A stretch of DNA of 60,571 nucleotides, filler included, from Nemertoderma westbladi (taxonomy: Eukaryota; Animalia; Xenacoelomorpha): assembly GCA_032718475.1 (NCBI GenBank). It is 3 parts of 3 records of this genome, joined end to end, with 100 filler letters (N's around TTAATTAATTAA, not from the genome) between each part and the next. Parts side by side here need not be neighbours in the genome. Positions count along the whole stretch, not along the records: positions 48,611 to 60,571 come from JAUCBJ010000286.1; 2 more parts are not named here. One strand, given 5' to 3'. The notes under the pieces are model-generated. The model made no database searches and was not told where the DNA came from. It was given only the letters and a program-made list of their open reading frames with translations. Position 1 is the stretch's first letter. Every line of letters begins with the position of its first letter. Below are positions 1,771-54,560 of the stretch, in pieces. A program made the position numbers and the translations under genes.

Positions 1771-1792
1771 CTGAAAGAAAGTAAAGATCCCA

Positions 1793-1870
1793 GTGATATT
1801 TTATGTGGCAATGTATAACATGTGGTGATATTTTATGTGGCAATGTATAACATGTGGTGATATTTTATGT
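1793..1870. repeat. 32-bp tandem repeat, ~2.4 copies (intronic)
   Basis: GTGATATTTTATGTGGCAATGTATAACATGTG repeated. Confidence 0.85.
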
Positions 1871-3860: not shown

Positions 3861-4004
3861 TTTTTAATTGGATAAGACCTATTGATTTTTATGGTGAACT
3901 ATATGGTAAACATTGTTGAGTAAATAAATATATAAGCCAAGCATAATAACTATTACAATACATACAGAGTTTACATTATTTTATATAAATTAAAATTCGT
4001 TATA

Positions 4005-4410
4005 GGCTTGATTGAATAGGCTTTCCAGGATTTGGAAGTCACCGAGAATTAATCGGAAACTTAAGGTCCGATTATTTAGAGCAGCAGTAGTTCCAGTACT
4101 CCTCTACGGGAGTCCATGCTGGGCTCTAACTGCTGAGGACACCAAATCTCTGGATGGCACATTCACAAGAATGCTACGCCGGTTCATTGTGTCAAGTACA
4201 ATGCACACATCTCCAACCAGACACTATATAACATTGGAGGTGTCTCATTGGTTCCCCCAAGCTTGACACTAGAACAAAATCGCCTCCGCTTTGCAGGACA
4301 TTGCTTTTGCCGTGAGGACCAGCCAGTGCATAATCTTGTACTTTGGCAGCCTCATGGAGTGAATAAGCATGGTGGACAGCCCATGACTTTCTTGAGACGC
4401 ATCTTAAATC
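4005..4410 (+). mobile_element. RTE-like LINE 3' fragment (post-RT region, frameshifted)
   Basis: LKVRLFRAAVVPVLLYGSPCWALT...RLRFAGHC is typical of the RTE C-terminus. Near-identical reverse copy at 39343-39748. Confidence 0.8.
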
Positions 4411-4411
4411 C

Positions 4412-4563
4412 GGCACAGCATTCTTAAAAATGCAGCTGCAATGCAGCATGCCGATCCTAGTAGTAGTAGTAGTAGTAGTAAAATCAAACTTATGAATTAT
4501 TGTATATACTACTACTAGGATCGGCATGCTGCATTGCAGCTGCATTTTTAGGAATGCTGTGCC
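4412..4563. repeat. Near-perfect ~57-bp inverted repeat with (TAG)n/(TAC)n inner ends
   Basis: GGCACAGCATTCTTAAAAATGCAGCTGCAATGCAGCATGCCGATCCTAGTAGTAG, with its reverse complement ending at 4563. Confidence 0.9.
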
Positions 4564-4660
4564 AGAAAGTGTCATTCTGAGATAATCACACTTTTGCGTT
4601 TTTTTTACCTACACATTACAGTTGATGTTGGCATTCTGTATTTTTGCATGCAAGTACATA

Positions 4661-10390: not shown

Positions 10391-11759
10391 GTTAAAAACT
10401 TATAATTCAGAAGTGGCAGAAGTTCATTTAAAGAAAACAACATCTTGGACAGCGAGAGAAATAATAGAACGAGGGCCATAAAAGCTTTAAAGTGCTAATT
10501 ATGAACAATGGCGAATCCAATTTTATTTATTTGTGGGGAATTATTTGTAGTTATGCAGTCAAACTTTCTAGAACAACCTAATAATGACGCGGTGACATAC
10601 TGAATATACATAGTAAAATCTATGGCGTAGGGACCTACTGAGAAATAATGTCGCACTGTGTTATAAAGCTGGAAAATATGTCGCCCTGGCGATTTGGGTA
10701 TTACTATGTTATGGGTACCCACTTTTTAAACAAATTTTTTCATATGAAAATGGCTTTAATCATGAGGTTTTTTGTTCTAGAACAAATATTTGACCTTCTG
10801 ACAGTAAGATGGTAGCTAGTAATTTTGATTTTGTGTTATAGCTAGTACTATTTATTAGCTAGTAAATGTAAGATATACCGGTAATTTAATTCTCAATTAT
10901 ATATTTGCATGGAATAATTTATGAGTCATGGGTAGCTAGTAATTTTTATTTGATAGTCAAAGTAGCTAGTAATTATTCACTAGCTAGTATTTTATACAAA
11001 ATATAGGCAGATGTCAAAATAGAGTTTTTACATATTTTACTTATGTAGGCCTATTTTACTTATTACTAGATTTATTTATCTATTTATTAGTCATTTCGAG
11101 AATATTGATGATATGGAAATTGTCTAAATAAAAGGGGCACTGCAAAATTTGTTTTGTAATTTTAAGTTCACTAGCTACCTTTAAAAACACTACCGGTAGC
11201 TAACATAATAACAGAATAAAAAATAATAGCTTTAACCTCTCTCAGAAGGTGAAAAAATGTATGTTCTAGAACAAAAAACCATCTTGATAATATCCATTAA
11301 CATGGTCCAAAATATTATTTTGTAATTTTAAGATCACTAGCTACCTTTAAAAACACTAGCTACCTTGAAAAAAATAATAGGTAACCTCTCTCAGAAGGTG
11401 AAATTTAAAATTAGGTACCAAAAATTTGGTTTTGTAATTTTAAAAACAGTAGCTACCTAAAAGAAATCACTAGCTACCATAAAAAAAAACAATAGCTAAA
11501 TTCTAACAGAAGATGACAATAATGTTCTAAAACTAAAAACCTCAAGATAATAGCCATTAACATTGTCAAATAAATGGTCAAAAAGTGGGTACCCATAACA
11601 TAGTAGTGCCGCGATAAATTAATTCCATACAAATAAATAACGTATTTTTTTGTCCTTATGCAAACCACATTTCCTTGAAATAGTAAACGCATTTCTACGT
11701 TGGCCAAGGAAATAAATATGCTTTTGTTACATTATGTCAACTTAAGAGTTCTGGTGAAT

Positions 11760-20200: not shown

Positions 20201-20839
20201 AAGGCATAAATATATAATATATAGTGGGTAGAAATGGGAAAACGTGACTTACAATGTATAAAATGGGGAAGTTGGAAAGTTTAAGATGAATATCGGAAAA
20301 TTTATTGAGTTTAAAAGAAAAACTCCAACACAATGACGTATCGGTAGCTATAGTTACATGTAATAGCTAAAAGATGCAAGTCAGGAAACGAAATTAATAG
20401 TGTGTCTGTCAATAAATTATTAATTAGGGTCTAATAATTATATATTTATTTATATAAAATAAAAGTTATTTAAAACCAAACGAATTCCGAGAAACAAAAT
20501 GACATAACTCTATACTCTATGAATGTACTACAGAACCGGTACATACACGGTTTACTAGTCTGCTAGTGCCAGTATACCTAAACTAAACAAACAGTCCTAC
20601 TCACATGCAACACACACGTTAGCTCGTTAGGACGGTGGGAGAATTCTAGAATAAATCGCATAATTAATAGATTCTACAATTTACATACACTATATAAGCC
20701 TAACTAACTCGGTCTATCCATACAAAATTCCCTATTAATCCGAAACATATCCCCAGAAAATATAAACATTGATATACAAATTTAAGCAGCAAACTACTGG
20801 AGTCAAATAAAATGCATCCCGGACATTGTGGTTAATACA

Positions 20840-21117
20840 AAACCAATACATTGTACCTTTAGGCCTACCCAGCTATCAAACCAATACATTGTACCCTTAG
20901 GCCTACCAAACCAATACATTGTACCTTTAGGCCTACCAAATCAATACATTGTACCTTTACGCCTACCAAACCAATACATTGTACCTTTAGGCCTACCAAA
21001 CCAATACATTGTACCTTTAGGCCTACCAAACCAATACATTGTACCTTTAGGCCTACCAAACCAATACATTGTACCTTTAGGCCTACCAACCAATACATTG
21101 TACCTTTACGCCTACCA
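20840..21117. repeat. 30-bp minisatellite, ~9 copies
   Basis: Unit AACCAATACATTGTACCTTTAGGCCTACCA. Confidence 0.95.
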
Positions 21118-21419
21118 GTGTTCGATTACTAAATTGTACAAATAGTAGGGCTGACTGGTCTGCCAGTACCATACCAGAATGCAGGTACCAGTCTGCCGGT
21201 ACCAGTCTACCGGTACCGGTAGCATTGAAACTAAATAAAATATATAAAAATATCAATAAACATCATTAGGCTATCTATTCAGCATCAGATAAAATAATAG
21301 CAGTTATTATGATATTATTTATTAGTAAGGAAAACTCAACAAACATATGATATCAGTAAAGAAGCGGCATAATAGTACTCAGTACTGTACTGTGTAGTAG
21401 TAAGCTGGTTGTATTTGTA

Positions 21420-21884
21420 TTAGAAATGTTGGGGTTGTTGACTGTACATGTATTGCTGTTGTGGGTCGTACATTCCAGCCATATCGACCTGCTGCTGCTG
21501 CTGTGGGGCGGATACTGGTTGCTGGAAGTCCTGAAACCCGTAGATGTGACGCGGCAAGTCAGTTCGACTGATCTTCAGCTGCACTAAGTCGCGTTTCGAC
21601 ATCAACTTTAGGGCGTGCTCGTGGGTAGCCATGGTCACGTCAAAACCGTTAATCTCTAAAACTTTGTCGCCGATCTGCAGACCGGATTTATGGGCTGGGC
21701 CGCCTTCTAGTATGTTGGTTACGTAAATGCCGCTGTCGCCTTTGCAGAAGGGATTGCACTCCGCGTTCTGATCGATTCCACCGCCAACCCGGCAACCCAT
21801 TCGCTTACGTTGGTCCGTTCCCACTCGTCCCTTTTGTATAATTATTTCTACACAGGGGATTGTCGTGTATTCGCAATCCATCAT
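21420..21884 (-). CDS. TAX1BP3: Tax1-binding protein 3 (TIP-1)-like single-PDZ protein, intronless
   Basis: GGGIDQ...NPF...D.GIYVT...GGPA...GLQIGDK...NG.D.TM.TH..A is the TIP-1 PDZ signature. Added Q-rich tail. Confidence 0.9.
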   Translation of the reverse strand: MMDCEYTTIPCVEIIIQKGRVGTDQRKRMGCRVGGGIDQNAECNPFCKGDSGIYVTNILEGGPAHKSGLQIGDKVLEINGFDVTMATHEHALKLMSKRDLVQLKISRTDLPRHIYGFQDFQQPVSAPQQQQQVDMAGMYDPQQQYMYSQQPQHF

Positions 21885-23718
21885 CTTGCTGTCTTGGTTA
21901 ATTCAGTACTTGGTGCTTGGTTTCTTTTAAGCTGTTCGCACAGTCGTATAATATAAACCACCAGTAACCACTGAACTAACGGCAACGGTGGCCAACTCCT
22001 CGACTCGACTCCTCTACGCTCTACTCAGCAACTAGATATACTTGGTATACTGGTATAAGGGAAATAATACACACACAGGTCTAATTAGAAAATAAATGTC
22101 GCAACAATGTTCTGATTTCTATTTCTTATTTCAGTAGGCCTATTACAGATTTTCAGTTTCTAATTATTATAACAACAGAACAAGACAAGACAATAAGACA
22201 ACAAGTAAAACTACCTCCAGCTTAAGCTTGGAGCACTTTACAATACAAAGTTTCCAAATTCATGCCGCTATTGCTGTATTGGGTACAACTAGATCAGTGG
22301 ATCTCTAGACTGCTAGATACAGAGATAGAAAGGCTGAAAGTGGAACGGATTAGTTACTTTTACTCTGTTACTCGTAATGTGTAATGTCTGAATGTAGCGT
22401 TAGGTTCAAATCGGCATTCTTTAGGTCCTGTCTGCCTGTAGCGCATAGCGTTAGGTCCCGTAGCTTTAGGTCAGTAGGCCTACTGCTACTGCAGTAGGTC
22501 TAGGTCCTGGGCGCTGGGCCTGGCGCTGGTGCCTGGGCCCTGGCGCATTACAGCATTCAGGCATTAGGTCATCTAGCCAGCTAGCATTCTGGCATTACTG
22601 CATTTGGTGAGATGCTGTAACCAAGGCAGAAGGCGTACTATATACAAGGTCATGCCATGAGTTAACTGGGGGCGGTGACAGGTGACTGGGGGCAAGATTT
22701 TTTTTTACAACAATTTGATATTTGGATATGGGGAGACTTCTATAAATTTTCATTTGCTGCAATTTGGTCAATGGACGTAATTGAAGCATCCTCGTTAAGT
22801 ACTGAACTGACTGACTGAAGTAAGATAAAATTTTTTATGGTAGCTAGTTTAGGCAGGTTTAGCTAGTAATTTCGACACTGGCTGACTGGATCCGACATCC
22901 TACCTCTGTTCTCTGTACCTCCCTCTATAAATATTTTGTAGTACCCCCTACCCCGTAGCTATTTCCTTTTACTATTTGTATAGAAAATGTTCCAGAACAT
23001 GTTAGGTTTTGTTAGCTATTCATTTTTTTAAAAATTATGTTCTAGAACAAATATTTTTTGTTCTAGAACATTTTTTAGAAAAAAGTCTGGATTCTATTTA
23101 AAACGCATGGAATCGTTCTAAAACGTGTACTTAAAGTCAATAAGGTAGGTAGATCTACCAGGATTTAATGTCAGAATGTCACGGACCTAATGCAGTACCG
23201 GTACTCCAACTGCAGTAATGTATAGGCCTAATGCTAATGCAGTAATGCTACCGGTACCTGCTACCAGGACATATGTCAATGCCACGGACCTAAAGCGCCA
23301 GGCAGCCAGGACCTAACGCAGTAGGCCTACCGGTAACTGGGTAACGCACCATAACCAACTTAACACAGTAACCGTTACTTCGGTAATTCCTAGTCTGCTA
23401 GTTCAGTAGTTCCTAGACAAGTACCTGTACCGGTAGATCTACAGCAGTACTGCAGTACAGTCTGACAGTAGGCCTACCGGTACCGCTATTTATACGCAGA
23501 TACAACATAGGCCTACAACATAAGAACATAGGCCAGTAGGCTACCGGTACAGCAGAACAGCATACGGACATACAGTACACAGACTACAGGCAGGGGCTAA
23601 AAGGCTTACTGCAGTTGTTGCAGTTGCAGTTGCACTAACTACTGTATTCTAGTATTGGTCATACGTGAAATTAAAATTACGACAGGAGGAGGGGAGTACA
23701 AATTATCTAGGCCTATAC

Positions 23719-25713: not shown

Positions 25714-26209
25714 ATGCCGAGTTGTACGTCTTCAGGTTCCTTAGAAAAGGTTCCTTCGGGTTCCTCAGAAAACACTGTAGATTCGAATTTTATGAGTTGT
25801 GACGAGTCTGTCTCTAGGCCTATGTATTCATCTAAAGCAAAAGGTATAGGAAGTTCAAGGTTGCGTTCCTTACAGCGGGGGCGCCCAAAGCTAAAAGATA
25901 AAGCTATTCTGTTCAAATGTTTAGTCGACACAGGTAGGGGCACTGCGGTAATTAAAAAACCCCTTGGTGCCTCAACTACACTTAGGATTATGGTACCACT
26001 GCGACAACCCATTCATTATAAGTGTAAAAAACCTTATCATTGATAAACTCTTTCCTAATGGGAAAAATAGGACATTGTTAGCGAAGAAATTACCTTCAGC
26101 TCCAAGTGAATACGATTTCACTTTAGTCGATGCGAATAACGATTCCATTGAGAGCTACAAATGGTTAGATGAATATTGTGTTGCAAATGGGTTTCCCGTC
26201 GATTATTGA
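25714..26209 (+). pseudogene. Second (accessory) ORF of the IS3EU-like element, frameshifted
   Basis: Overlapping ORFs 25714-26043 and 25964-26209 inside the TIRs, converging on the transposase; includes LFPNGK...DFTL. Confidence 0.5.
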
Positions 26210-27219
26210 AACGGGTTATGGGACTTCTGTGGGTTTCCCGTCGATTATTGAAACGGGTTATGGGACTTCTGTGGGTTTCCCGTCGATTATTGAAACGGGT
26301 TATGGGACTTCTGTGGGTTTCCCGTCGATTATTGAAACGGGTTATGGGACTTCTGTGGGTTTCCCGTCGATTATTGAGACGGGTTATGGGACTTCTGTGG
26401 GTTTCCCGTCGATTATTGAAACGGGTTATGGGACTTCTGTGGGTTTCCCGTCGATTATTGAAACGGGTTATGGGACTTCTGTGGGTTTCCCGTCGATTAT
26501 TGAGACGGGTTATGGGACTTCTGCGGGGTTCCCGTCGATTATTGAAACGGGTTATGGGACTTCTGCGGGTTTCCCGTCGATTATTGAGACGGGTTATGGG
26601 ACTTCTGCGGGTTTCCCGACGGGTTATGGGACTTCTGTGGGTTTCCCGTCGATTATTGAGACGGGTTATGGGACTTCTGCGGGTTTCCCGTCGATTATTG
26701 AAACGGGTTATGGGACTTCTGTCGGGTTTCCCGTCGATTATTGAGACGGGTTATGGGACTTCTGCGGGTTTCCCGTCGATTATTGAGTCGATTATTGAGA
26801 CGGGTTATGGGACTTCTGTGGGTTTCCCGTCGATTATTGAAACGGGTTATGGGACTTCTGTGGGTTTCCCGTCGATTATTGAGACGGGTTATGGGACTTC
26901 TGTGGGTTTCCCGTCGATTATTGAGACGGGTTATGGGACTTCTGCGGGTTTCCCGTCGATTATTGAAACGGGTTATGGGACTTCTGTCGGGTTTCCCGTC
27001 GATTATTGAGACGGGTTATGGGACTTCTGCGGGTTTCCCGTCGATTATTGAAATTATTGAAACGGGTTATGGGACTTCTTCGGGTTTACTGTCGATTATT
27101 GAAACGGGTTATGGGACTTCTTCGGGTTTACTGTCGATTATTGAGACGGGTTATGGGACTTCTTCGGGTTTACTGTCGATTATTGAGACGGGTTATGGGA
27201 CTTCTTCGGGTTTACTGTC
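26189..27219. repeat. 42-bp minisatellite, ~24 copies, inside the IS3EU-like element
   Basis: Unit GGGTTTCCCGTCGATTATTGA(A/G)ACGGGTTATGGGACTTCTG(T/C). Confidence 0.95.
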
Positions 27220-27594
27220 TATATTAAAAATTGGTTTTAAAATGTTTTTAATAATTATAAATCATATGTTCAGTAATTGTTACCTATACTTATTTATTGA
27301 CAACTATATACAAGTTGGGGAACAAAAAATGCACTTCAAATACAATTGAAATAAATACATACAGTAGTAATGCAAGTGTGTTTGTATCTTACTAAATATA
27401 TGAATCAATTTCTTTCATAATAATATTAATTAAGTACAGCGCTGTCGCTTTACAATCCCCAAGATTTACACATTCTGATGGTTGTTTAAATTATAATTCA
27501 TTATTTAATAAATACTGACAAAGGTTTTTCACTGATTCTATACAGTTTGGCACATCATACGCAAAACATTTCACCTGCTCAATTGAAGAAGCAC

Positions 27595-31613: not shown

Positions 31614-31713
31614 NNNNNNNNNNNNNNNNNNNNNNNNNNNNNNNNNNNNNNNNNNNNTTAATTAATTAANNNNNNNNNNNNNNNNNNNNNNNNNNNNNNN
31701 NNNNNNNNNNNNN
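31614..31713. other. Artificial assembly spacer (44 N + TTAATTAATTAA + 44 N)
   Basis: Six-frame-stop linker inside N runs; identical to the spacer at 48511-48610. Confidence 0.97.
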
Positions 31714-31796: not shown

Positions 31797-33650
31797 ATGG
31801 TGAACAGACATTCCTTTAGGAACCAGTGTGAAGGGTTAACTGTGGAAGATCATCCGTGATGGTGAACCGGCATTCCTTTAGGAACAATAGTGGAAGGGTT
31901 TACTGTGGAAGATCACCCGTGTGGTGAACAGGCATTCCTTTAGAAAACAGAGTGGAAGGGTTTACTATGGAAGATCACCCATGGTGGTGAACAGGCATTC
32001 ATTTAGGAAACAGAGTGGAAGGGTTTACTGTGGAAGATCACCACTGGTGGTGAACAGGCATTCCTTTAGGAAACAGAGTGGAAGGGTTTACTGTGGAAGA
32101 TCACCCATGGTGGTGAACAGGCATTCATTTAGGAAACAGAGTGGAAGGGTTTACTGTGGAAGATCACCCTGGTGGTGAACAGGCATTCCTTTTGAAACAG
32201 AGTGGAAGGGTTTACTGTGGAAGATCACCCATGGTGGTGACAGGCATTCCTTTAGGAAACAGAGTGGAAGGGTTTACTATGGAAGATCACCAATGGTGGT
32301 GAACCGGCATTTCTTTAGAAAACAGAGTGGAAGGGTTTACTGTGGAAGATCACCCATGGTGGTGAACAGGCATTCCTTTAGGAAACAGAGTGGAAGGGTT
32401 TACTACTGGAAGATCACCAATGTGTGGTGAACCGGCATTCCTTTAGGAAACAGAGTGGAAGGGTTTACTGTGGAAGATCGCCCATGGTGGTGAACAGGCA
32501 TTCCTTTAGGAAGCAGAGTGGAAGGGTTTACTGTGGAAGATCACCCATGGTGGTGAACCGGCATTCATTTAGGAAACAGAGTGGAAGGGTTTACTATGGA
32601 AGATCACCCATGATGGTGAACAGGCATTCATTTAGGAAACAGAGTGGAAGGGTTTACTATGGAAGATCACCAATGGTGGTGAACCGGCATTCGTTTAGGA
32701 AATAGAGTGGAAGGGTTTACTGTGGAAGATCGCCCATGATGGTGAACAGGCATTCATTTAGGAAACAGAGTGGAAGGGTTTACTATGGAAGATCACCCGT
32801 GGTGGTGAACCGGCATTCCTTTAGAAAACAGAGTGGGAGGGTTTACTGTGGAAGATCGCCCATGATGGTGAACAGGCATTCATTTAGGAAACAGAGTGGA
32901 AGGGTTGACTATGGAAGATGATCACCCGTGGTGGTGAACCGGCATTCCTTTAGAAAACAGAGTGGAGGGTTTACTGTGGAAGATCGCCCATGACGGTGAA
33001 CAGGCATTCATTTAGGAAACAGAGTGGAAGGGTTTACTATGGAAGATCACCCGTGGTGGTGATCCGGCATTCCTTTAGAAAACAGAGTGGAAGTGTTTAC
33101 TGTGGAATATCACCCATAATGGTGGGTGAACAGGCATTCATTTAGAAAACAGAGTGGAAGGGTTAACTATGGAAGATCATCCGTGATGATGAACCGGCAT
33201 TCCTTTAGAAAACAGAGTGGAAGGGTTTACTGTGGAAGATCACCCATGATGGTGAACAGGCAGGCATTCATTTAGTAAACAGAGTGGAAGGGTTAACTAT
33301 GGAAGATATCCGTGATGGTGAACAGGCATTCCTTTAGAAAACAGAGTGGAAGGGTTTACTATGGAAGATCACCCATGGTGGTGAACAGGCATTCCTTTAG
33401 GAAACAGAGTGGAAGGGTTTACTGTGGAAGACCACCAATGGTGGTGAACAGGCATTCCTTTAGAAAACAGAGTGGAAGGGTTTACTATGGAAGATCACCC
33501 ATGGTGGTGAACAGGCATTCCTTTAGGAAAACAGAGTGGAAGGGTTTACTGTGGAAGATCACCCATCATGGTGGTGAACAGGCATTCCTTTAGGAAACAG
33601 AGTGGAAGGGTTTACTGTGGAAGGTCACCAATGGTGGTGAACACGCATTC
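31797..33650. repeat. 63-bp minisatellite, ~29 copies
   Basis: Unit GGTGGTGAACAGGCATTCCTTTAGGAAACAGAGTGGAAGGGTTTACTGTGGAAGATCACCCAT with scattered indels. Confidence 0.95.
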
Positions 33651-34052
33651 CATGGCCTAACGAGCCTAAAAGATTCTCCCATTAAAGTATGTGTATTTTA
33701 CAAGTATATATATGTTGTACTCTTTGTAAGTATCCATTCCAATCATAAGTTTGTTCAAATTAATTGTTGTTTTACTGTAATTATTGTTGTCATTGACTAA
33801 AGTTAATGTTATTCCTGGGTCTCCCATGTTGTACTTCTTCTATTATATTAATATTACCTATAGTCTGCATCTATGTAGTGGGTTGTCCTATAATAATTTG
33901 TAATTAATAATAATTTTCTGATACTGTGATACTTAAAACGACAATGGCCCTAAATTGACGTGTCGGAGGATGTAAATAAATATAATTTAAATATGAATAT
34001 ATAAGACATCAAACACTCCTGGAAAGGGACACGATTTGTATTCTGTCACTCA

Positions 34053-34904
34053 GTGGGAAGGGTTATCGGTAACACAGCAACCCTCGGCATTATTAATAGA
34101 CTTAATGACCCCAATAGGAGGAGAATAAAACACTGCGCCATATCATCGGATGATAAGACCGTTGCTGGTGCAGTCTATGTTCTGCATGGTGGAGGAATCA
34201 ACATCTGGGATGTCGACACATACGAACTATTAAGCTATCTGAACTGCTCGCATCAGCTAGCACTCCAATTCAGCCCCATAAACCCCAACCTTTTTGCTAC
34301 TGGTGGTGCAGATGGTCAGATATCGCTAATATTTACCCCTATTGGTACTGGAATCAGTAAAACATGGGAAGCACACAGTAACAATGTAACTGACGTAAGA
34401 TTTAACAAAAAAGGAAACGAGTTAGTTAGCTGTTCGACAGATGGAACCGCAAAGATTTGGGACCTCAATGGTAACCTAATAGAGGTTATTACTGAATGGG
34501 AGGGGTCTATCTATTCGGTGGTATTTAACTCAGATTCAAGTAAACTTATTTTGCTGTATTGTAGGCTCACTAGATGTATTTCCTTTTTAAACAGAGTGGA
34601 ATTATGGAAAACAAATGCAGGGGGGTGTAAGGTTGAATGGGGACCTCAGGTTGGGACAGTTGTTGTGTTGAGTTTGGGAAAATGGCACAGGTGGGTTAGT
34701 ATTACGTTATTAGATGATGAGGATGGCCAGATGACAGTATATGGGGGTTTGGGGATCAATGTGATGGTCACCAGTCTGAACCTCCACCCAAAAGGAAGTC
34801 ATCTGTTGGTTGGTTTAATGAATGGAACAATTATTAAAATTAACATAAACCAAAATCAGATAGAACCTTTTAGTATATATTATATAGAAAAACCAAAAAA
34901 TTAG
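34053..34904 (+). CDS. WD40-repeat protein (exon or fragment; true start unresolved)
   Basis: INIWD, FATGGADG, AHSNNVTDVRF...LVSCSTDGTAKIWD, IYSVVF. No ATG at the start, but a possible acceptor ttctgtcactcag ends at 34053. Confidence 0.7.
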   Translation: MGRVIGNTATLGIINRLNDPNRRRIKHCAISSDDKTVAGAVYVLHGGGINIWDVDTYELLSYLNCSHQLALQFSPINPNLFATGGADGQISLIFTPIGTGISKTWEAHSNNVTDVRFNKKGNELVSCSTDGTAKIWDLNGNLIEVITEWEGSIYSVVFNSDSSKLILLYCRLTRCISFLNRVELWKTNAGGCKVEWGPQVGTVVVLSLGKWHRWVSITLLDDEDGQMTVYGGLGINVMVTSLNLHPKGSHLLVGLMNGTIIKININQNQIEPFSIYYIEKPKN

Positions 34905-44119: not shown

Positions 44120-44215
44120 TTAGAAAATCGAAACACTTAACATAAGATTACTATCCTATTAATATTTGTTTAGTAAATAGTAGAAACTGAAAGTGACATG
44201 TACCGGTACTGCTCA

Positions 44216-44524
<309 letters not shown>

Positions 44525-45064
44525 TCAAAATCAATAGGCCCTAAGTACTTTGTGGTTATTAGATCTTAAGCTTGGTATGGCTGGGATTAAGACAGACCAT
44601 TCACCTGATGTCTTAACCAGAGACGGCTTAGCTATACCCAGCCAGTGCTGTTCAACTACTGTAGTTGAAAGTTATACTACCGCAGTGCTTAATGCTGTTC
44701 ACGTTCAGTTGTCATTTCATGTTTTATATTTAAAGTGGTTTAATTTAACTTGTCACTGCGAATTTAGTTAGCTAACGTTTTTTTTAATACTTGTTATTTA
44801 GTTACGGTACTTTCAACTAAAATCTAACTACAGTAAATTTTATTTTTCTTTGTCCCCTTGTCCTTTGACTGCTCTGGTTCTGGACAATCTAGTCGAGAGT
44901 CTCGACTGAATGCTCTCAAAATAATAACAAGTAATAACACCCATTATTGTTAAATTAACATAGTGCTAATCATATGATGCCATTTACTTATGCTTAAGAG
45001 CCTTATACTCTGCTTGGGGTAGTATCACAATCACAGAGATTACTTACCTGATGCTGATATATTA

Positions 45065-45274
<210 letters not shown>

Positions 45275-45976: not shown

Positions 45977-46857
45977 CTTAAAATAACTACAGTCTCTTCC
46001 CTGATTCGCTTCTGGTTTAGAGCTAGCTGCCTTGCTGCATGAGTAAGGAATAGTATTGTTGGAATTAATGGGCTTACTGTATTGAATTTGCTAATGAACA
46101 GGGCAAAAGGCTTGAGTATCAAGATTCACTACAGGTTTAGGACAACAACGACTTTGACTGCAGGTAACAAGGAATTATTGTTACACAAGCGAGTACAGTA
46201 CTGATGTATGTTGATATTCAGTTCGGGATGTTTTATTGGACCGGTACTGTTAGACCAGACCTACACATATTTTAATCATTTGACTCCTTATACCACTGAC
46301 CGCCGCGCCACCACTAATGACTGACTGGCACAAGTCTCAGCCACAGTTAACTTCAATGGGAATGAGTGGGCGTAATATCTTATTCAAAGATATCACACTC
46401 AAACCACCAAACCCCACCTCCTAAGAAAAGGAACAACAGGTTCTTTGGCTTTTCAAACAAAAATTATTCGCCTAATTTATAATTATCTATAATCATTACT
46501 ATTTGCATGTAAAATAATAATAATTGACACTTAATTTTATAACCATTGACTTACCATTAGTATCGCGTAATGTTTACCTTGACACGCCATTTTTACTAAG
46601 AAAGAGTATTTTTTGTAACCTGTACCTTGTAACATTTGAGAGGAATTTATCGCCATATGAGCCGAAATACTGTTGGACACTTACAACATAATGTATTGTA
46701 TGCACGGCCGTAAACGGTCTTCTTGTTTATACAAGGCCGCGATTGTAGATCTACAGTTTTAGTTTGTGTAATTATGTAGTAGGCGGTCTTACTACCTTTA
46801 CATACACTGAACACGGTTTAAATATTACCAACCATCGTATATTCGCGATCCGTAAAC

Positions 46858-47820
46858 ATGGATTCCTTCAACGACGTATTTTCAAAAATTTATGACACTG
46901 AGTTAAAAGCTTTGGAAAGAAAAAAACAAATACAGCAGACCAAGGATGAAGCGAATAAATTCGAATGTCGCATAGCTAGTGAGACTGAGGCGATTGTGTC
47001 TGCTGAAAGTGATATTGTCGGGTATACACATCGTCTCACTGAGCAGTCGACAATATTAATGTGTTCGGAAATCCGCAGACGTGTCATAAAACACGAAAAT
47101 GATAAGTGCGATAAAGTTATTGCCGAGTTTAAGGAGAAGTCTGTAACTAATCGAATTAGGTTGGAACAATTGCAGACGGAATTCTTTAAAAGAGCGGAAA
47201 GATTTGGGAAAGAATACGATCTTCTAAGTAACGGTAAGTATGATAGACAATATAAACTGAAAGTAGATGTAAGCAAAGCGGTTGATGACTTAGAGAAAGT
47301 TAAGGAAACAATAGAGAAGTATAAAGCTCAGGATCAGAGTAGACATGTGATCGCTATGGAGGAACAAGAACTAATGAACGATATTAGAGGGCTAGAGGAT
47401 GAGTTGGAAAATGTACAGAAGCAAGTGGATAAAACTAAGAATAAGTTGAACCATCTGGACAAAGAGTTGTCGAGGGTATCCAGCCTACCGACCACGGCAA
47501 CAAGGTTCATTACGATAAAGAACAAGTTATCCAATCTCAAAGATCCAGTTTTGATGAATTATATTCTGGAATTAAAGGAGGAGTTGGATAAGTTACAGCA
47601 GGAGGAGTGGAGACGTTCACTAAAACCATTGAAGGCGCAGCCCTCAGCAACCCTCAAGGGTACTTCTTCAAGCACAGTGGCTCCAGTGGTCACCGACAAC
47701 GAATGGGACAATGATATTCTGTTTAGTTCCCAGTGGGACGAAGAAGGTGACGCACCGGAAGATAGCGACTATTGTGAACCGGGCAATTCGAGACCAAAGA
47801 AAAAAGTTCGATTTGAATAA
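46858..47820 (+). CDS. Coiled-coil protein, CCDC172-like, intronless
   Basis: 320-aa heptad-rich ORF with aaacATGG start. S.ND.F..I..TE..A.ER and F...Y.L motifs recall CCDC172. AATAAA overlaps the stop. Confidence 0.7.
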   Translation: MDSFNDVFSKIYDTELKALERKKQIQQTKDEANKFECRIASETEAIVSAESDIVGYTHRLTEQSTILMCSEIRRRVIKHENDKCDKVIAEFKEKSVTNRIRLEQLQTEFFKRAERFGKEYDLLSNGKYDRQYKLKVDVSKAVDDLEKVKETIEKYKAQDQSRHVIAMEEQELMNDIRGLEDELENVQKQVDKTKNKLNHLDKELSRVSSLPTTATRFITIKNKLSNLKDPVLMNYILELKEELDKLQQEEWRRSLKPLKAQPSATLKGTSSSTVAPVVTDNEWDNDILFSSQWDEEGDAPEDSDYCEPGNSRPKKKVRFE

Positions 47821-48510
47821 AACATTTGAATGTTACATTTATATGACTTTCTTAATTCGTTTATTTTAAAAGAGTAAAGGGATTATTTTCATTGCACTAA
47901 TTTGATTAAAATCTTATTAACAGTTACCATTATTAGAACTAACAGTGTAATGCTTATGTGTGATTTTCCAACATACCCTCGATTATTCTTGTTAAATGTG
48001 TCATAAAATATGTGCCTAATATTTGCCCATATTTTATGCCTATATAGACATAAAGTTATGTACACCGTTGCCAACCTGGGTATTGCACGGTCAATAAAGT
48101 ATCCCATAAGATTGGATTGATTCTACTTTTTTCCCGGCGAAAAAAGTATATTAAAATATTTTTATTCGTTTCTAGAATATTATATTAGCATTGGGCCTAT
48201 ATTCCCTATTTTGCTATTTCGCTTTTTATAACGGTATTTCACTATGGAAGAAGCTTTGATAGACGATATTTATGCTGAAATAGACCAAGATAAAAGTGAG
48301 AAGACTTACAATAAATAAAACTAAGTAAGTGGTGGCATAAAGTAACATTTTTTCTCTTGCATTTTCATTTGTCTCGATAAGCTCGCCAAATAATATAGTC
48401 TGTCTACAAACATATTTTGGATCCTTAATTATCCAAATACTAATTAGCCTCTCAAGGGACATGAAGAAAAAATCTCTATCATACGTGCGCCGTGTTACTG
48501 TACTATTGCG

Positions 48511-48610
48511 NNNNNNNNNNNNNNNNNNNNNNNNNNNNNNNNNNNNNNNNNNNNTTAATTAATTAANNNNNNNNNNNNNNNNNNNNNNNNNNNNNNNNNN
48601 NNNNNNNNNN
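48511..48610. other. Artificial assembly spacer (44 N + TTAATTAATTAA + 44 N)
   Basis: Same linker as at 31614-31713. Confidence 0.97.
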
Positions 48611-48611
48611 C

Positions 48612-49328
48612 GTTGTTACTTATGACAACGAAGGTAGCGTTCCGGTGGGAGAACTAGGAACTACGCGAATGATACATATACGAGGACTCGCTGGTTCTAC
48701 CCACGTATTCACTCGAGCGTGTTCCGACGTGATCGATTATTCTTTTGAAACCCTTACGGAGACACAAAAGAAACTTCGACATGGACAATTCGAGCTCGCG
48801 CAGCGTTACGTCACTGACACCGAGCGCAAACCGGCCATGGGTATCGACGGATCAATGTTACCCCAACCCGTGCTCGAAATGTTGTTTAACGAAAGAATCC
48901 TAAAAATCGGCTCAGCTGTTTATGGAGATCTCCAAAACGACTTCCGGAATATGGAAAACATTCCATACCCTTTCGTTGATACTCAGCTGATTGCTCCTTG
49001 GGCCGAAGGCCGAGGTTTCTTTCGCACTATGTATGCCAATACACCCAGCGACATTACTAAAGTACAACGGACATCCATCGGACATCTTGCCTTTCAAGAA
49101 TATGGATGGAACTTCAAAGTTGGAAATCCTATCAATTACCAGCAGGTATATGGAGATCATTACTCTCGTTTATATTTTGATGGACCATTAACTGCGCCTG
49201 GTGCCGTATATAGCTTTATGAGTGTTCCACTTCGCCCTTCCTTAGCTATATACACGATCTTTGAAAACGCAGCACTTGCCGGTTGGCTAGCCGATGTGTG
49301 CAGTCGTACCATACGCGCTCACCCTTAA
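48612..49328 (+). CDS. DEDDy (WRN/RNase D-like) 3'-5' exonuclease domain, 5'-truncated by the contig break
   Basis: Frame is open from the contig start: VVTYDNEG (ExoI DxE), LPQPVLEMLFNERILKIGSAVYGD (ExoII), FVDTQLIA, SIGHLA...GWNFK. ExoIII region atypical (YTIFE). Confidence 0.65.
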   Translation, partial: VVTYDNEGSVPVGELGTTRMIHIRGLAGSTHVFTRACSDVIDYSFETLTETQKKLRHGQFELAQRYVTDTERKPAMGIDGSMLPQPVLEMLFNERILKIGSAVYGDLQNDFRNMENIPYPFVDTQLIAPWAEGRGFFRTMYANTPSDITKVQRTSIGHLAFQEYGWNFKVGNPINYQQVYGDHYSRLYFDGPLTAPGAVYSFMSVPLRPSLAIYTIFENAALAGWLADVCSRTIRAHP

Positions 49329-50725
49329 TACTTGGAACTAAACTCGCCAAGTTAGACGAACACAATAAGTTCATACGTTTCGAATGTTTCCGGCGCTTTC
49401 TGACTCCGTTCCGTAACGTCGATAGTCAGTTCAAGGACCGCGCGCTGACCAAACTCAGTCTGAGAGACTCAGCTGCGGAGAAACTGAGTAGCGCTGGATT
49501 TGCCGTTTTTCAAGACGTTTGTATACAGAACCTACATTCATCCGTTATACAAAGACCCCGAATATCTACAGGTTATTCTGTCGTGGAAATACAGACAGTG
49601 GGTCCACTTACGGAAACCGACGCACCCACTTCGTCTATGCAGCTGGAGGATGAACCAGTATGCTTGGAATCAGAAGCGATTCAACCTACGGCTTCCCGGA
49701 GCAGTGACAATGATTATGTCATAGAGTGGTATCAAGGTCCACAGCGTCTCACAGCGTACGATTATCGACACGCCAACTACGTTTCTCGAAAACGTTGTCG
49801 ATTATGCGCATCGAGAGACCACTTCACTCCTCTAGACTCGAGCGTACCTTGTTCCTATTTCCTCGAACAACCAATGATGGAAATATATTGTGCTTATTGC
49901 CGGCTTAATAACTCTCATATATTTGCCGTCTGCCCACAATTTATGACTCAATGTCACTACTGTCAACTTAAAGGACATGAAAGTTACAATTGTCCCTTTA
50001 ATCGCGATTTAGAGAGCGTAGACGAGATGATCACCCTGCGATACATCCGAGCTTGGGAAGCGAACGCAGATTTACATTGCGAATCCCGACATCGCTATTA
50101 CCCTGGACGAGCTTACGAGGGAGTTTACGCGTTCCATCCTTATCTATTCGCGTCGATTGAACAGAAAACACGCGTACCAAGTTACGAGTTAATGAAGCGT
50201 GTTGGTGAGTGTATTTCCACCAAGTTTGTCAGGAAATACCTTAGAAACGTTAACCCTAATGATATAACCACATATCACCTGATCAATTTTATCCGTCAGG
50301 ACCCTGAGTATGGCGACATCTTTGTGAACTCGCATCCTGAACTACAGGAAATATCTCGGCGACCATATGAATATCGAACCCGAGAACGCGAGCTGGAGAG
50401 AACCATTAAACCGAGAAAGTTCCTCACCACTCACGGTCCACCCACCGCTAGTGTCCAGACGACCCGTCAAGGACCCGTAGGAGCTGCTGTCCTGAGACGC
50501 GCTCTAAAGGCCGTTAGACCTCGCTCCACTGAGGTTGATATTAATCAACCAGGTACTTCGACCGGCGGGTATACCGATCGTAACCCTGCACCTTCTGATG
50601 CAATTATATTGCACCCTTCGCCTAGGAGCTATAGCCCTCCTCGTAAAGTGGCTCGCCCCAAAGAGAAAAAGACTCTGGCTAGCTTTAAAAAACTGCGTAA
50701 ACGCCGTCCGCGCAAGAAAGACTAA
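49283..50725 (+). CDS. Multi zinc-knuckle protein with basic C-terminus; overlaps the exonuclease ORF in the -1 frame
   Basis: CRLCASRDH...C, CAYCRLNNSHIFAVC, CHYCQLKGHESYNC; ends KKLRKRRPRKKD. No ATG near the 5' end. Confidence 0.75.
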   Translation: MASRCVQSYHTRSPLILGTKLAKLDEHNKFIRFECFRRFLTPFRNVDSQFKDRALTKLSLRDSAAEKLSSAGFAVFQDVCIQNLHSSVIQRPRISTGYSVVEIQTVGPLTETDAPTSSMQLEDEPVCLESEAIQPTASRSSDNDYVIEWYQGPQRLTAYDYRHANYVSRKRCRLCASRDHFTPLDSSVPCSYFLEQPMMEIYCAYCRLNNSHIFAVCPQFMTQCHYCQLKGHESYNCPFNRDLESVDEMITLRYIRAWEANADLHCESRHRYYPGRAYEGVYAFHPYLFASIEQKTRVPSYELMKRVGECISTKFVRKYLRNVNPNDITTYHLINFIRQDPEYGDIFVNSHPELQEISRRPYEYRTRERELERTIKPRKFLTTHGPPTASVQTTRQGPVGAAVLRRALKAVRPRSTEVDINQPGTSTGGYTDRNPAPSDAIILHPSPRSYSPPRKVARPKEKKTLASFKKLRKRRPRKKD

Positions 50726-50803
50726 CTGTTTAGAGTATTTATGTATATTAGAAATTGTGATTTTGTATATTTTATAGACTTAAATCCCATTTTCTGGGAG
50801 CGG

Positions 50804-51208
50804 TGTAAAAGCTTTTGTGGGATAACTGATTCGTTTGCCTTGTTGGCCAGTTCCCCCCCGGGCGCTGAATACTCTAAAAGGGGATCTATAACTCGAATAG
50901 CGCAAGCTACCGGCTGATTGGCTGATTTGCTGTGCGAAGGAATCTGGGCTACGTTTGATTGTCCAACCAGCTTGGGAAAGTTGCCCCACAGCCCTGTTTC
51001 TGTATCTGCCAATAGGATTTGAGTTGATTTTGATTTCGACCTATCACAGATCTACTGAACTGAATTTTCCTATCTGTATGCTCTTTCTCTGTGGTGGGTG
51101 GAAGCCTTTGTAAATAAGGTTATTCTTATCAGTTTTTAGTGTTTTTTGTGATTCTAAGCCAGGAAGAGAGCGGCTTTGGAATTTTATGCTCTTTCTCTGT
51201 GCCTTACA
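50804..51208 (+). mobile_element. Putative 3' LTR preceded by a purine tract
   Basis: GGGAGCGG|TGTAA....TTACA (5-bp inverted termini), 405 bp, starting ~80 bp after the ORF stop. Partner LTR not in the window. Confidence 0.6.
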
Positions 51209-51269
51209 CTAGTAGGCTTAATTATAAGGGCATATATCCGTTATCAAACGAACAATCCAAAACTGATTG

Positions 51270-52830
51270 ATTGTCACAACTCATGCAACTCAACATACCT
51301 AATCAAACATACCTGTGCATACTTTTATATTGTTATACTGCTATTTACTGTCAGTTCTTCATAATATGGTTGATGAATTATTATATTTGGAATAACGATA
51401 AATAACCCCGAAACCCAATATTCTTGATATACCGAAGGTAAGAGAGAAAGGTTACATATAACGATTGTGACTTATGTTAAAGTGGTTTGAAGTGAATCTA
51501 ATGTTATTTGATAGACCCTACATGAGTCAGTCCGTGTTCCTTTTATATATAACTAAAATCAGTGAAGATCGGCAGATCAGTGTGCAGTATTGTGCAGCAT
51601 TGTGTATGAGTGAGACTGATAACGAAGCATTTCCTAAAGAATGCGCCATATATGTGAATTATAACTAAGCCATATCGTTGTGAGTAGTTTAAGTCATAAC
51701 TCTGTTTATATAGATAGAGCGCCACGTCCTAAAGGAACTGTTAATATTTCCCGAAGGTGAATAATATTGTCAGAGATTATATAATACTGTCAGTCGAATA
51801 ATACATTAAGCTTACATAGCAATAAGATTAAGCCGTCGAACCCAATCTCCCGGGTATATCCAGCGGGTGAATGATCGCGCACAGATTGGTTTCGACTAGT
51901 GTAGTGAATTAAATACTTGTCATAGGCTAAAAGTGATTTATTATCTAGAAGACATCATAATTTGGCGGGTTAAACTGCCAAAGGTCTGAAAGCGCGAACA
52001 CAACATACAAACATAGTAGTTTGGTTCTGTATTGGTTGCATAGCCTATCACCACTGCCCACATTGCACATGTGAAGGTGTCACAGGTGAGAAGGTAGATG
52101 TCTTGTTCGCGGTTTTAGACCTTTAGCAGTTTAACCTGCCAAATTTAGGTGTCTTCTAGGTTATAAATCGACTTTAGCCTATCACAAGTATTTGATACAC
52201 ATAATAAGCTACATTAGCCGAAGCCAGCCTATGCGCGATCATTCACCCACGGTTAAGGGAGACTGGATTCGGATGCTCTGACCTTATTGCGGTGTAGACC
52301 TACTGTATTATTCGATTGATCGTTAATATAATATCTCTGACAAATATTATTCACTTTCGGGAAATATTAACAGTTCCTTTAGGACGTGGCGCTCTAAGTA
52401 TGTAAACAGAGTTATGACTTACACTAAACACAACGGGATGGCTAATGATTTACGTATAAAGCGCATTCTTTAGGAAATGCTTTGTTATCTATCACACTCA
52501 TGCACACTACCGCACAATGCTACACACTGATCTGCCGACCTTCACTAATTTTAATCATATATAAGGAGAACAGCAACTGACACATGTAGGGTCTATGAAA
52601 TAGCATTCAATTCACTCCAAAACCACTATAAGGTAAGTCGCAATTGCTATGTAACCGGTCTCTCTATCTCTAACCTTCAGAATATCAAGAAGATTGGGGT
52701 TTTCTGATTATTTATCGATATTCTCCAAATATAACAACATATCCATCAAATGATAACACTTATAACCGACAGTAAATAGCAGTAAAATAATGCGGTGTTT
52801 GTATGTAATCAGGTTTGCATGAGATATGAC
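51270..52830. repeat. ~1.6-kb imperfect palindrome (foldback-like)
   Basis: Example: AGAGCGCCACGTCCTAAAGGAACTGTTAATATTTCCCGAA at ~51716 and its reverse complement at ~52355-52395. Arms meet around a ~100-bp spacer at 52000-52104. Confidence 0.85.
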
Positions 52831-53984
52831 AGGCTGATAACAGTTATACGTTTCTATGATCAAAGCCGTTCTAATGTTTGGCTAAAGTCTGAAACACAGA
52901 ATAATTCCACAGCCGATGTTCTGGGCTCAGGAAAAAAGGTAAACAAAGACCATAATGCATTGCGCAATTTCCCGGAGGCTTCTGTGCAAATAAAATGAAA
53001 ATCGCTCTGATTGGTCGAGCCGAACAAAGAAAAAGCTCTACGTGGACATATCAGCTGATAGATGTCGTCATCTGAACTACACTGTATCAAGAGTATTTTG
53101 GCGTATTGCGGCATAAAATCGCTAGTTATGTCCGCTAAAGTACACATACAGAAAAATGGCTTTTTATGTCCACTAAAACACCTACACAGTAAGAAAACGG
53201 CTTTTTATGTCCGCTAAAACACCTACAGAGTACTTTGCGGGGAAAATGACTAGCTAGATCCGCAAAAGCTTTTACATGTCTCCTGCGATTGGTCCATGGT
53301 ATGGTCACTGGAAATATCTCCATTGGTAAGTTCAGTGGCTTGGTGGTTTAAGGCATGTGCAAGTAAATTTAAGCAGTAAATTTCTTAATACAGTATAATA
53401 TAAATAGTCTTTAAATTTTAAATAGCAATTAAAATAGTCTGAATTAATAATTTTCAACAGTTTGTATTTTAAATACAAATAATGGCCCATTGCATTTAAG
53501 TCAAATTAAATTCAGTCTGTCATTTAATTACGGTACTTCAATATTTTCCACTACCACACATGTTATGAGAGTTTGTGCGGCTAAAAATACTAAAGTATAT
53601 TTTTGCCTCTTAAATAATTAAATATATATTATTTTATTGCGCAGAACACCATCTCCATACCGAAACCTAACTAACCAAAACAATCAACGATATTATTACA
53701 AATTAATGGAAAGGAGTGCCACACACGTCGCGTCTCTCCTCCACATCTGTGGAACGATACGGGTTACCACTTCCATTAACTAAATAATTAGATAATTAGA
53801 CATAGACGGGTTTAGACAAAGTTGTTGTTAGGAATGTTTTTTTTTTGAACGATTTAAAGCTGGCGTTTATAAACGTGTCCAGATTGGTCTCTACTGCTTG
53901 CGTGGAGCCATTTACAAGTCCGAAAAATTCACCTCAGCAAATTAAATATTTTGCCCCCCCCCCCCCCCCCCCCCCCAACATATG

Positions 53985-54560
53985 CGACATATTTTCCATC
54001 TTTTTTGACAATTTTTATTTCGCAGTGCAACATTATTTCTCAGTCAGTCGCTACGCCATACATTTTACTATCTATTTCCATTATATCCAGTATGTAACCG
54101 CGTCATTACTAGGTTGTTCTAGAAAGTTTGAGTGCATCATAACTACAAATAATTCCTCTCAAATAGATAAAATTAGATTCGCCATTGTTCACAATTAGCA
54201 CATTATAACTATTTAAGTTAAGTGGTGGCAAAAAAGTTGGCTTTTTTTTGTCGAGCGTTATTATTTGGCGAGCGTAACGAAACAAATAGAAAGCAAGACA
54301 AAAAAGTTTACTTTTTGCTCCACTTACGTCGTTTTATTTGTTGTAAGTCTTCTCACTTTTATCTGGGCCTATTTCTGCATAAATATCGTCCATCAAAGCT
54401 TCTTCCATAGTTAAATACGGGCATTACTACACCTTGGGTTCCCATTGTCTTAACAATTTTTTTTTCATGTAAAAAGGCTTTTATCGTGAGGTTTTTTTCT
54501 AGAACAAATATTTGACATTCTGACAGTAGTATGGTATTTTTTTCCAAAAAAAATGTTCTA
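53985..54560 (+). repeat. Dispersed repeat homologous to 10495-10815
   Basis: YVTASLLGCSRKF-encoding block shared in reverse with 10495-10690; GACAGTA/TTCTAGAACAAATATTTGAC block shared with 10720-10815. Confidence 0.7.

What the first reader, a model, noticed from the sequence alone, without database searches (positions are those of the whole stretch)
48612..51208. LTR retroelement apparently carrying a DEDDy 3'-5' exonuclease plus triple zinc-knuckle gene in the env/ORF3 position
Seen: an intronless, visibly GC-richer coding block with ExoI (YDNE) and ExoII (KIGSAVYGD) motifs, three CCHC-type knuckles and a basic NLS-like tail. It is followed within ~80 bp by a purine tract and a TGTAA...TTACA 405-bp LTR-like unit. 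Known: DEDDy nucleases (Nibbler/MUT-7, EXD1, RNase D) trim small RNAs, and DEDDy cargo ORFs have been reported in bdelloid rotifer retroelements. Inference: a retroelement-encoded RNA-binding exonuclease, possibly an anti-piRNA/siRNA or RNA-processing factor. I know of no description of this exonuclease plus multi-knuckle architecture. gag-pol would lie beyond the contig break.
Basis: partly seen in the sequence, partly recalled or inferred. Interest (0 to 1): 0.85.

Follow-up and report, generated by a model that had tools for sequence, protein, structure and literature searches.

The report
Retrotransposon-borne exonuclease with three zinc knuckles
A many-copy gene in an animal genome, frameshifted in this copy, sits directly before a 1.2-kb retrotransposon end repeat and likely encodes an RNA-trimming exonuclease joined to three zinc knuckles, a likely new variant of a passenger gene known from rotifer retrotransposons.

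Summary
The core observation holds, with two corrections. (1) The coding block is broken by a frameshift near 49.32 kb. A distant natural relative (P0003, 648 aa) carries both parts in one chain, and other copies show length differences at the break, so the family gene is likely one ORF. (2) The LTR is 1,197 bp (50804-52000), not 405 bp. A sister solo LTR lies inverted at 52104-53276 with a 5-bp target duplication and an empty site in 3 of 4 runs. The gene is multi-copy, and 11 of 11 listed variants in the nuclease part are synonymous. The DEDDy assignment rests on weak but concordant profile hits (RNase D E=0.002; Atlas PF01612); both folds failed. ExoIII has Glu for Asp, so activity is uncertain. 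gag-pol was not seen (assembly gap, no genome held). DEDDy ORF3s are published for bdelloid LTR elements, and exonuclease plus CCHC array is published for trypanosome TbRND. This scan noted exonuclease-CCHC ORF3s in another genome. Verdict: new variant of a known kind; interest 0.45.

The parts
48511..48610 (.). Assembly gap (44 N + TTAATTAATTAA + 44 N); hides the start of the gene and whatever lies upstream
48612..49328 (+). Exonuclease-like part of the accessory gene (P0001, 238 aa, cut at the 5' end by the gap)
   Evidence: Atlas first hit PF01612, score 0.90; TIGR01388 RNase D, E=0.0023, residues 85-130; 30% identity over 150 aa to P0003; 11 of 11 listed variants synonymous
48621..48632 (+). 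Candidate ExoI motif YDNE (D-x-E)
   Evidence: sequence; alignment to P0003 not significant
48903..48929 (+). ExoII motif KIGSAVYGD (matches KVGSNIKAD of P0003)
49251..49265 (+). ExoIII-like motif Y-x3-E (YTIFE), Glu where DEDDy enzymes have Asp; P0003 also has Y-x3-E
49265..50725 (+). Second open frame (P0002, 486 codons): linker, three knuckles, C-terminal region, basic tail; follows the frameshift near 49.32 kb
49796..49852 (+). Knuckle 1, atypical C-x2-C-x4-H-x9-C
49889..49933 (+). Knuckle 2, C-x2-C-x5-H-x4-C
49952..49993 (+). Knuckle 3, canonical C-x2-C-x4-H-x4-C
   Evidence: (zf-CCHC_3, E=0.22)
50633..50722 (+). Basic tail, 15 K/R in 30 residues, NLS-like (inferred)
50796..50803 (+). Short PPT-like tract GGGAGCGG next to the LTR start
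50804..52000 (+). LTR, 1,197 bp, TGTAAAAGCTTTTG...GCGAACA; variable 5' half, conserved 3' half; read as the element's 3' LTR
   Evidence: a contig in run X5 leaves the sequence exactly at 52000 (table 7)
52104..53276 (-). Solo LTR of a sister subfamily, 1,173 bp, same first 14 bases, 78% identical over the 3' 699 aligned columns
52099..52103 (+). Target-site duplication TGTCT, left copy
   Evidence: empty-site joint 52097>53276 in runs X1, X3, X4 (table 5)
53277..53281 (+). Target-site duplication TGTCT, right copy

Best explanation
This is the 3' end of a multi-copy LTR element whose last gene, frameshifted in this copy, likely encodes one roughly 700-residue accessory protein that is predicted to bind single-stranded RNA through three zinc knuckles and trim RNA 3' ends with a DEDDy-type exonuclease domain. 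Shown: the gene order (gene, short purine tract, 1.2-kb LTR), that the LTR family moves with 5-bp target duplications, many divergent copies, synonymous-biased variation in the nuclease part, and a distant relative with both domains in one chain. Inferred: that gag-pol lies upstream in the gap, the DEDDy fold (profile hits only), zinc and RNA binding, and nuclear import by the basic tail. My split for the mechanism: trimming or de-tailing the element's own RNA in its particle or RNP, 40%; destroying host small RNAs, 25%; catalytically dead RNA-binding adaptor, 25%; acting on cDNA, 10%.
For: LTR: TG...CA ends shared by two units whose homology stops exactly at both ends. The 14-base start occurs 2 times in the window, 0.09 expected. 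The solo LTR has a 5-bp duplication and an empty-site joint in 3 of 4 runs laid, from three studies. A variable 5' half and conserved 3' half fit U3 then R/U5 in the gene's orientation (PMC3601003, passage). A contig of run X3 joins 50818 to 53261 on the opposite strand, so the same start is attached to the sister LTR type. Multi-copy: 26,690 contigs of X1 laid on the 4.8-kb stretch, 19,604 under 99% alike, and up to 70 contigs carry one variant inside the nuclease part. Selection: 11 of 11 listed variants in the nuclease part are third-position synonymous, against about 0.30 expected (binomial 2e-6). One gene: P0003 matches the nuclease part (E=5e-15 pairwise; 4.7e-5 library-wide) and the knuckles (E=2e-5; 0 of 2000 shuffles reach either score) in the same order, and contigs in 3 of 4 runs show length differences at the break (table 4). 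Fold: RNase D profile hit E=0.0023; Atlas first hits for both proteins are PF01612 clusters, 10 of 10 best named hits in one clan. Mechanistic model: in TbRND the CCHC fingers bind U-rich RNA and are needed for efficient cleavage (PMC7797062, passages).
Against: No gag or pol was seen next to the gene: the contig starts inside it, no genome is held, and left of the gap lie an actin start and a coiled-coil ORF. Pfam gives P0001 no hit at E<=1 and P0003 only E=0.2 for DNA_pol_A_exo1. The Atlas scores (0.90 with 147 shared features; 0.86 with 163) are lead-level. Both folds failed. ExoI is not confirmed by alignment, and ExoIII has Glu for Asp; in TbRND the matching Asp230 is important for activity. 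The linker from nuclease to first knuckle is about 150 residues here, against 28 in TbRND, so direct feeding of RNA is less certain. The variant test uses the 18 coding rows among 40 shown of 587, chosen by support; in the second frame only 4 of 7 are synonymous, and copies are not independent. The listed length differences at the break cover all listed depth in X4 but only about a sixth in X1 and about two fifths in X3 (64 indel rows not shown). The purine tract is short. The context of P0003's 9.4-kb contig could not be read.
Confidence: 0.7

Rival explanations
1. Same gene and element, but the nuclease site is dead or feeble and the protein is an RNA-binding adaptor, as with EXD1 or Maelstrom. 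This rival concerns mechanism only.
For: ExoIII is Y-x3-E in both P0001 and P0003. ExoI is unconfirmed and a long insertion lies between it and ExoII. PMC5408684 (Discussion read) raises inactive DEDD derivatives as a model.
Against: Acidic residues stand at all four expected places in both distant relatives (D-x-E, D, E), which is easier to explain if metal binding is kept. Bdelloid ORF3s also swap one Asp for Glu (DEED) and were read as possibly active.
Confidence: 0.25
2. The element is non-autonomous: two LTRs around this one gene, with no gag-pol, moved by a partner element.
For: No LTR-type pol is in view. The three RVT_1 hits among 11 other ORFs tested lie far off and have non-LTR-type motifs (motif reading is recalled). 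The gene's tail, UTR and LTR start are covered 4-6 times deeper than the rest of the gene in X1, which hints at short derivatives.
Against: The gap is a fixed-length placeholder and can hide any length. Published DEDDy ORFs in LTR elements follow gag-pol (PMC5408684).
Confidence: 0.15
3. The two frames are a programmed arrangement (ribosomal frameshift or two genes), not a lesion.
For: The frames overlap by 64 bases. Only part of the listed depth in X1 and X3 shows a length difference at the break.
Against: P0003 has both parts in one frame. All listed depth in X4 shows a length difference there. I saw no X-XXY-YYZ slippery site in the overlap (by eye). The first Met of the second frame is at residue 127.
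Confidence: 0.07
4. A host gene (a TbRND-like or EXD-like retrogene) with an unrelated LTR inserted behind it.
For: Atlas neighbours are cellular proteins.
Against: The coding part is covered by thousands of divergent contigs, and the gene tail, UTR and LTR start form one high-depth block.
Confidence: 0.04
5. 50804-53276 is a single 2.5-kb fold-back or TIR DNA element with 14-bp inverted ends, not two LTRs.
For: The region is a large imperfect inverted repeat.
Against: The right unit alone has a 5-bp target duplication and is absent, precisely, in contigs of three runs. The outer ends share no duplication.
Confidence: 0.03

Closest known systems
DEDDy exonuclease ORF3 of bdelloid rotifer LTR retrotransposons Juno and Vesta, shared with Athena/Terminon elements (PMC5408684; abstract, passages, Discussion and one supplement file seen)
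   Same: DEDDy-type exonuclease gene in the last, env-like position before the LTR; no transmembrane segment; one catalytic Asp replaced by Glu; activity untested.
   Different: In the passages seen, knuckles are described only for gag and pol, and ORF3 has at most a Cys-His-Cys motif. Here three knuckles and a basic tail are fused to the nuclease. The paper's motif is DEED; here the fourth acid is Glu (D-E-D-E). LTRs there are 159-551 bp, here about 1.2 kb. Sequence kinship could not be tested.
Trypanosoma brucei RNase D, TbRND (PDB 7C42 and related; PMC7797062, passages)
   Same: DEDD 3'-5' exonuclease followed by an array of CCHC fingers. The Atlas first hit for P0003 is a Euglenozoa PF01612 + zf-CCHC cluster (0.86), and 7c42 appears weakly through the knuckles (E=2.9).
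   Different: A cellular mitochondrial enzyme with four fingers, a 28-residue linker and canonical DEDD. Here three knuckles, a long linker and a mobile context. No significant similarity of the nuclease domains was found; the likeness may be convergent.
P0003, an unnamed 648-aa protein on a 9.4-kb ENA contig
   Same: The only relative found among 1.84 billion representatives: same order of nuclease, low-complexity linker, three knuckles and basic end, and the same Y-x3-E.
   Different: About 30% identity in the nuclease; genomic context unknown; the region after the knuckles does not align significantly.
WRN-exo / EXD / MUT-7 / RNase D group (Pfam PF01612 DNA_pol_A_exo1)
   Same: ExoII-region similarity and Atlas assignment.
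   Different: Far below the curated cut-offs; ExoIII Asp replaced; no HRDC domain detected.

Membership tests
LTR retrotransposon | Terminal repeat with TG...CA ends and short inverted termini | tested here: met
   TGT...ACA at 50804/52000 and at 53276/52104; homology between the two stops at both ends
LTR retrotransposon | 4-6 bp target-site duplication | tested here: met
   TGTCT on both sides of the sister solo LTR, with empty site in 3 of 4 runs. Not testable for the gene-bearing copy, whose 5' end is in the gap
LTR retrotransposon | Polypurine tract before the 3' LTR | tested here: inconclusive
   GGGAGCGG, 7 of the last 10 bases purine, 8 of the last 15
LTR retrotransposon | Paired LTRs around the internal region, PBS after the 5' LTR | not testable with these tools
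   Assembly gap at 48511-48610; no genome held
LTR retrotransposon | gag and pol (PR, RT, RNase H, IN) upstream; superfamily (Gypsy, BEL/Pao, Copia) | not testable with these tools
   None next to the gene in the window; upstream sequence is missing
LTR retrotransposon | Multi-copy, dispersed | tested here: met
   Thousands of divergent contigs over gene and LTR in X1 and X3; varied flanks at 52000 and 53276
DEDDy 3'-5' exonuclease (PF01612 / RNase D) | ExoI D-x-E | tested here: inconclusive
   YDNE present and P0003 has IDVE, but the alignment does not beat shuffles; the strand before it is cut by the gap
DEDDy 3'-5' exonuclease (PF01612 / RNase D) | ExoII Asp | tested here: met
   KIGSAVYGD / KVGSNIKAD lies inside the stretch matched by the RNase D and PF01612 profiles
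DEDDy 3'-5' exonuclease (PF01612 / RNase D) | ExoIII Y-x3-D | tested here: not met
   Y-x3-E in both P0001 and P0003; placement as ExoIII rests on position and the recalled motif
DEDDy 3'-5' exonuclease (PF01612 / RNase D) | DnaQ / RNase H-like fold | tested here: inconclusive
   Models at pLDDT 33.9 and 35.9; Atlas feature hits point to the clan
DEDDy 3'-5' exonuclease (PF01612 / RNase D) | Score above the curated cut-off | tested here: not met
   17.2 bits against 298.95 for TIGR01388; P0003 11.9 against 23.6 for PF01612
zf-CCHC knuckle array | C-x2-C-x4-H-x4-C repeats | tested here: met
   1 of 3 canonical in P0002, 2 of 3 in P0003; the P0003 knuckles match retroviral nucleocapsid chains at E=2.5e-4
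Bdelloid DEDDy ORF3 clade (Juno/Vesta/Athena) | Sequence or phylogenetic grouping with the rotifer ORF3s | not testable with these tools
   No rotifer sequence came up
env | Transmembrane segment, fusion glycoprotein | tested here: not met
   Highest 19-residue hydropathy 1.19, 0.94 and 1.24 for P0001, P0002 and P0003

The most novel reading that the evidence does not exclude
A lineage of animal LTR retrotransposons carries a TbRND-like counter-defence enzyme: the knuckles grip U-rich 3' tails and a D-E-D-E exonuclease strips them, either rescuing the element's own RNA from uridylation-triggered decay or shortening host piRNAs/siRNAs until they fail. That would be an enzymatic anti-silencing gene carried by a retrotransposon.
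Probability: 0.15. Interest if true: 0.85.

Novelty: new variant of a known kind. Interest (0 to 1): 0.45.

Why it matters
DEDDy passenger genes in LTR elements are in print only for bdelloid rotifers in my searches, and their role is untested. A high-copy family in another animal, with signs of purifying selection and a fused knuckle array that also occurs in a distant relative, suggests the cargo is old and useful. It gives a concrete handle: the TbRND structure predicts RNA binding by the knuckles and 3' trimming, which can be assayed with the natural intact relative. If it acts on small RNAs or U tails, it would be a retrotransposon-encoded nuclease against host silencing.

Tried and rejected
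No genome is held, so LTR pairing and gag-pol could not be searched. The search for homologous proteins gave nothing for P0001 at 418-2000 aa, only itself for P0003, and nothing at E<=10 for the two-sequence nuclease profile. The search for related loci found no relative in metagenome contigs or viral contigs; an LTR pattern had no match in viral contigs. PDB sequence searches gave no nuclease hit. AlphaFold models were unusable; the fold search on the first gave only Z<=5.6 to unrelated folds and no DnaQ member, which means nothing for such a model. Rfam found nothing in 46000-54000, so no hammerhead for a Penelope-type pseudo-LTR reading. No tRNA in the window. The high-depth block 50530-50830 has no RNA-fold signal (z -0.10). 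No RNA holder is listed; X5 is only guessed RNA, so expression is open. A single-copy depth baseline was not obtained, so no copy number is given. PHROGs gave no hit for P0001 or P0002. Rejected: the 405-bp LTR, a single fold-back element, an env role, and glutamine synthetase hits at E about 0.9.
Full report
Observation. The finding starts right after an assembly gap (48511-48610). The coding block has GC 0.46-0.48, above its surroundings. It is not one frame: 48612-49328 gives P0001 (238 aa) and 49265-50725 gives P0002 (486 codons) in another frame. No transmembrane segment is present.

One gene, broken here. A search of 1.84 billion cluster representatives with P0001 returned one protein, P0003 (E=4.7e-5), 648 aa, a singleton on a 9.4-kb ENA contig. 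It matches P0001 over 150 residues at 30% and the knuckles of P0002 at 33% over 43 residues, in the same order and in one chain; 0 of 2000 shuffles reach either score. I laid 4 of the 7 runs listed. Contigs in X1, X3 and X4 show length differences within a few bases of the break (table 4). These cover all listed depth in X4, about a sixth in X1 and about two fifths in X3, and 64 indel rows were not shown. So the family gene is likely one ORF of about 700 residues plus the missing start, and this copy is frameshifted; some other copies may share the break.

The nuclease call. Direct evidence is weak but concordant. P0001 has no Pfam hit but matches the RNase D model TIGR01388 at E=0.0023 over the ExoII region. 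P0003 matches DNA_pol_A_exo1 at E=0.2 over the same region. The Atlas puts PF01612 clusters first for both (0.90 and 0.86; 10 of 10 best named hits in one clan), which by the tool's own calibration is a lead. Both proteins have D-x-E near the start, an ExoII Asp, and Y-x3-E where DEDDy enzymes have Y-x3-D (the canonical motif is recalled). The ExoI alignment does not beat shuffles. Both AlphaFold models failed (pLDDT 33.9 and 35.9) and the fold search on the first is uninformative. I judge a DEDDy-type fold likely and catalysis open.

Multi-copy and selected. In X1, 26,690 contigs laid on 48612-53400, 19,604 of them under 99% alike; all 30 bins are covered in X1, X3 and X4. Depth there is no copy number, and I obtained no baseline. 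Of 587 variant rows 40 were shown, and 18 fall in the coding block. All 11 in the nuclease part are third-position synonymous, against about 0.30 expected; 4 of 7 are synonymous in the second frame. The rows are chosen by support and copies share ancestry, so this is a sign of purifying selection, not a dN/dS.

The LTR. The region after the gene is a large imperfect inverted repeat, which resolves into two related units. Unit 1 is 50804-52000 (+), 1,197 bp; unit 2 is 52104-53276 (-), 1,173 bp. Both begin TGTAAAAGCTTTTG (2 matches in the window, 0.09 expected) and end GCGAACA, and homology stops there. They are 78% identical over the 3' 699 columns and 42-61% per 100 bases in the 5' 500 bases. 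[quoted passage not shown] Unit 2 is flanked by TGTCT on both sides, and contigs of X1, X3 and X4 join 52097 to 53276, the empty site. Loose ends with unlike flanks fall at 52000 (X5, 1 contig) and 53276 (X4, 3 contigs). So unit 2 is a solo LTR and unit 1 is read as the 3' LTR of the gene-bearing element. The purine tract is short (GGGAGCGG).

What is missing. The 5' LTR, PBS and gag-pol cannot be seen. No genome is held. Left of the gap lie an actin start and a coiled-coil ORF, and the three RVT_1 hits among 11 other ORFs tested are distant. The superfamily is undetermined; a 5-bp duplication fits BEL/Pao, Copia and some Gypsy clades (recalled).

How it likely works. By analogy with TbRND, where CCHC fingers bind U-rich RNA and raise cleavage by the DEDD domain (PMC7797062, passages), the knuckles would hold single-stranded RNA and the nuclease would remove bases from its 3' end. 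The basic tail would bring the protein to the nucleus. The long linker argues for tethering to an RNP over a rigid feeding channel. I favour action on the element's own RNA (40%) over host small RNAs (25%), a dead adaptor (25%) or cDNA (10%). None of these steps is shown.

Comparison with what is known. DEDDy ORF3s are described in bdelloid Juno and Vesta LTR elements and in Athena/Terminons, with a DEED motif and untested activity (PMC5408684: abstract, 12 of 14 passages, Discussion, one supplement file). Two reviews repeat this (PMC6431247 and PMC5718144, passages). PMC5563155 (passages) proposes silencing suppression for virus-derived helicases in insect LINEs, an untested parallel. Ten paper searches showed no LTR element with a fused exonuclease and knuckle array. 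The library is partial: the original Terminon paper did not come up, figures are not held, and repeat databases were not searched, so such a description may exist. Two earlier notes of this scan report Rrp6-like exonuclease ORF3s, one with HRDC and a CCHC knuckle, in another invertebrate genome (unchecked); no look-alike of P0001 or the LTRs was indexed.

Verdict. A real, multi-copy LTR element end with a likely DEDDy-type exonuclease and triple-knuckle accessory gene. It works like the rotifer ORF3 cargo and is built like TbRND, but membership of either clade is not shown, and the ExoIII Asp test is not met. New variant of a known kind; interest 0.45.

Noticed in passing
window 50532-50851: The basic tail, 3' UTR and LTR start are covered far deeper than the rest of the gene (X1: 745,000 and 1,137,000 against 79,000-314,000; X4: about 35,400 against 211-5,015). 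There is no RNA-fold signal. It may be shared by sister subfamilies or short derivatives; unexplained.
   Followed up: partly
By-sequence look-ups with both LTRs found nothing.
   Followed up: partly
window 3450-3750 (+): Decayed fragment of the same LTR family, 66-69% identical to the conserved half.
   Followed up: partly
window 46858-47820 (+): Intronless coiled-coil ORF of about 320 aa with no Pfam family above cut-off; it recalls CCDC172 (from memory, untested). Likely a host gene left of the gap.
   Followed up: partly
window 45062-45274 (-) and 44213-44524 (-): Exons of a cytoplasmic actin gene, recognised from the translation.
   Followed up: no
window 48234-48395 and 54259-54418; 54014-54213 and 10480-10667: Short interspersed repeats in inverted orientation, 83-88% identical; one lies just left of the gap.
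   Followed up: no
window 5591-9154 (-): Open 1,187-codon reverse transcriptase frame (RVT_1, E=3e-10) that looks like a non-LTR element with a C-terminal endonuclease (recalled motifs).
   Followed up: partly
window 21420-21902 (-) and 34005-34904 (+): Uninterrupted PDZ frame (TAX1BP3-like, recalled) and WD40 frame.
   Followed up: partly
window 20786-21145, 26118-27349, 32382-32705: Tandem minisatellite arrays that give long repetitive open frames.
   Followed up: no
window 31614-31713 and 48511-48610: Both gaps are the same 100-base placeholder pattern of 44 N, 12 bases, 44 N, so true gap length is unknown.
   Followed up: yes
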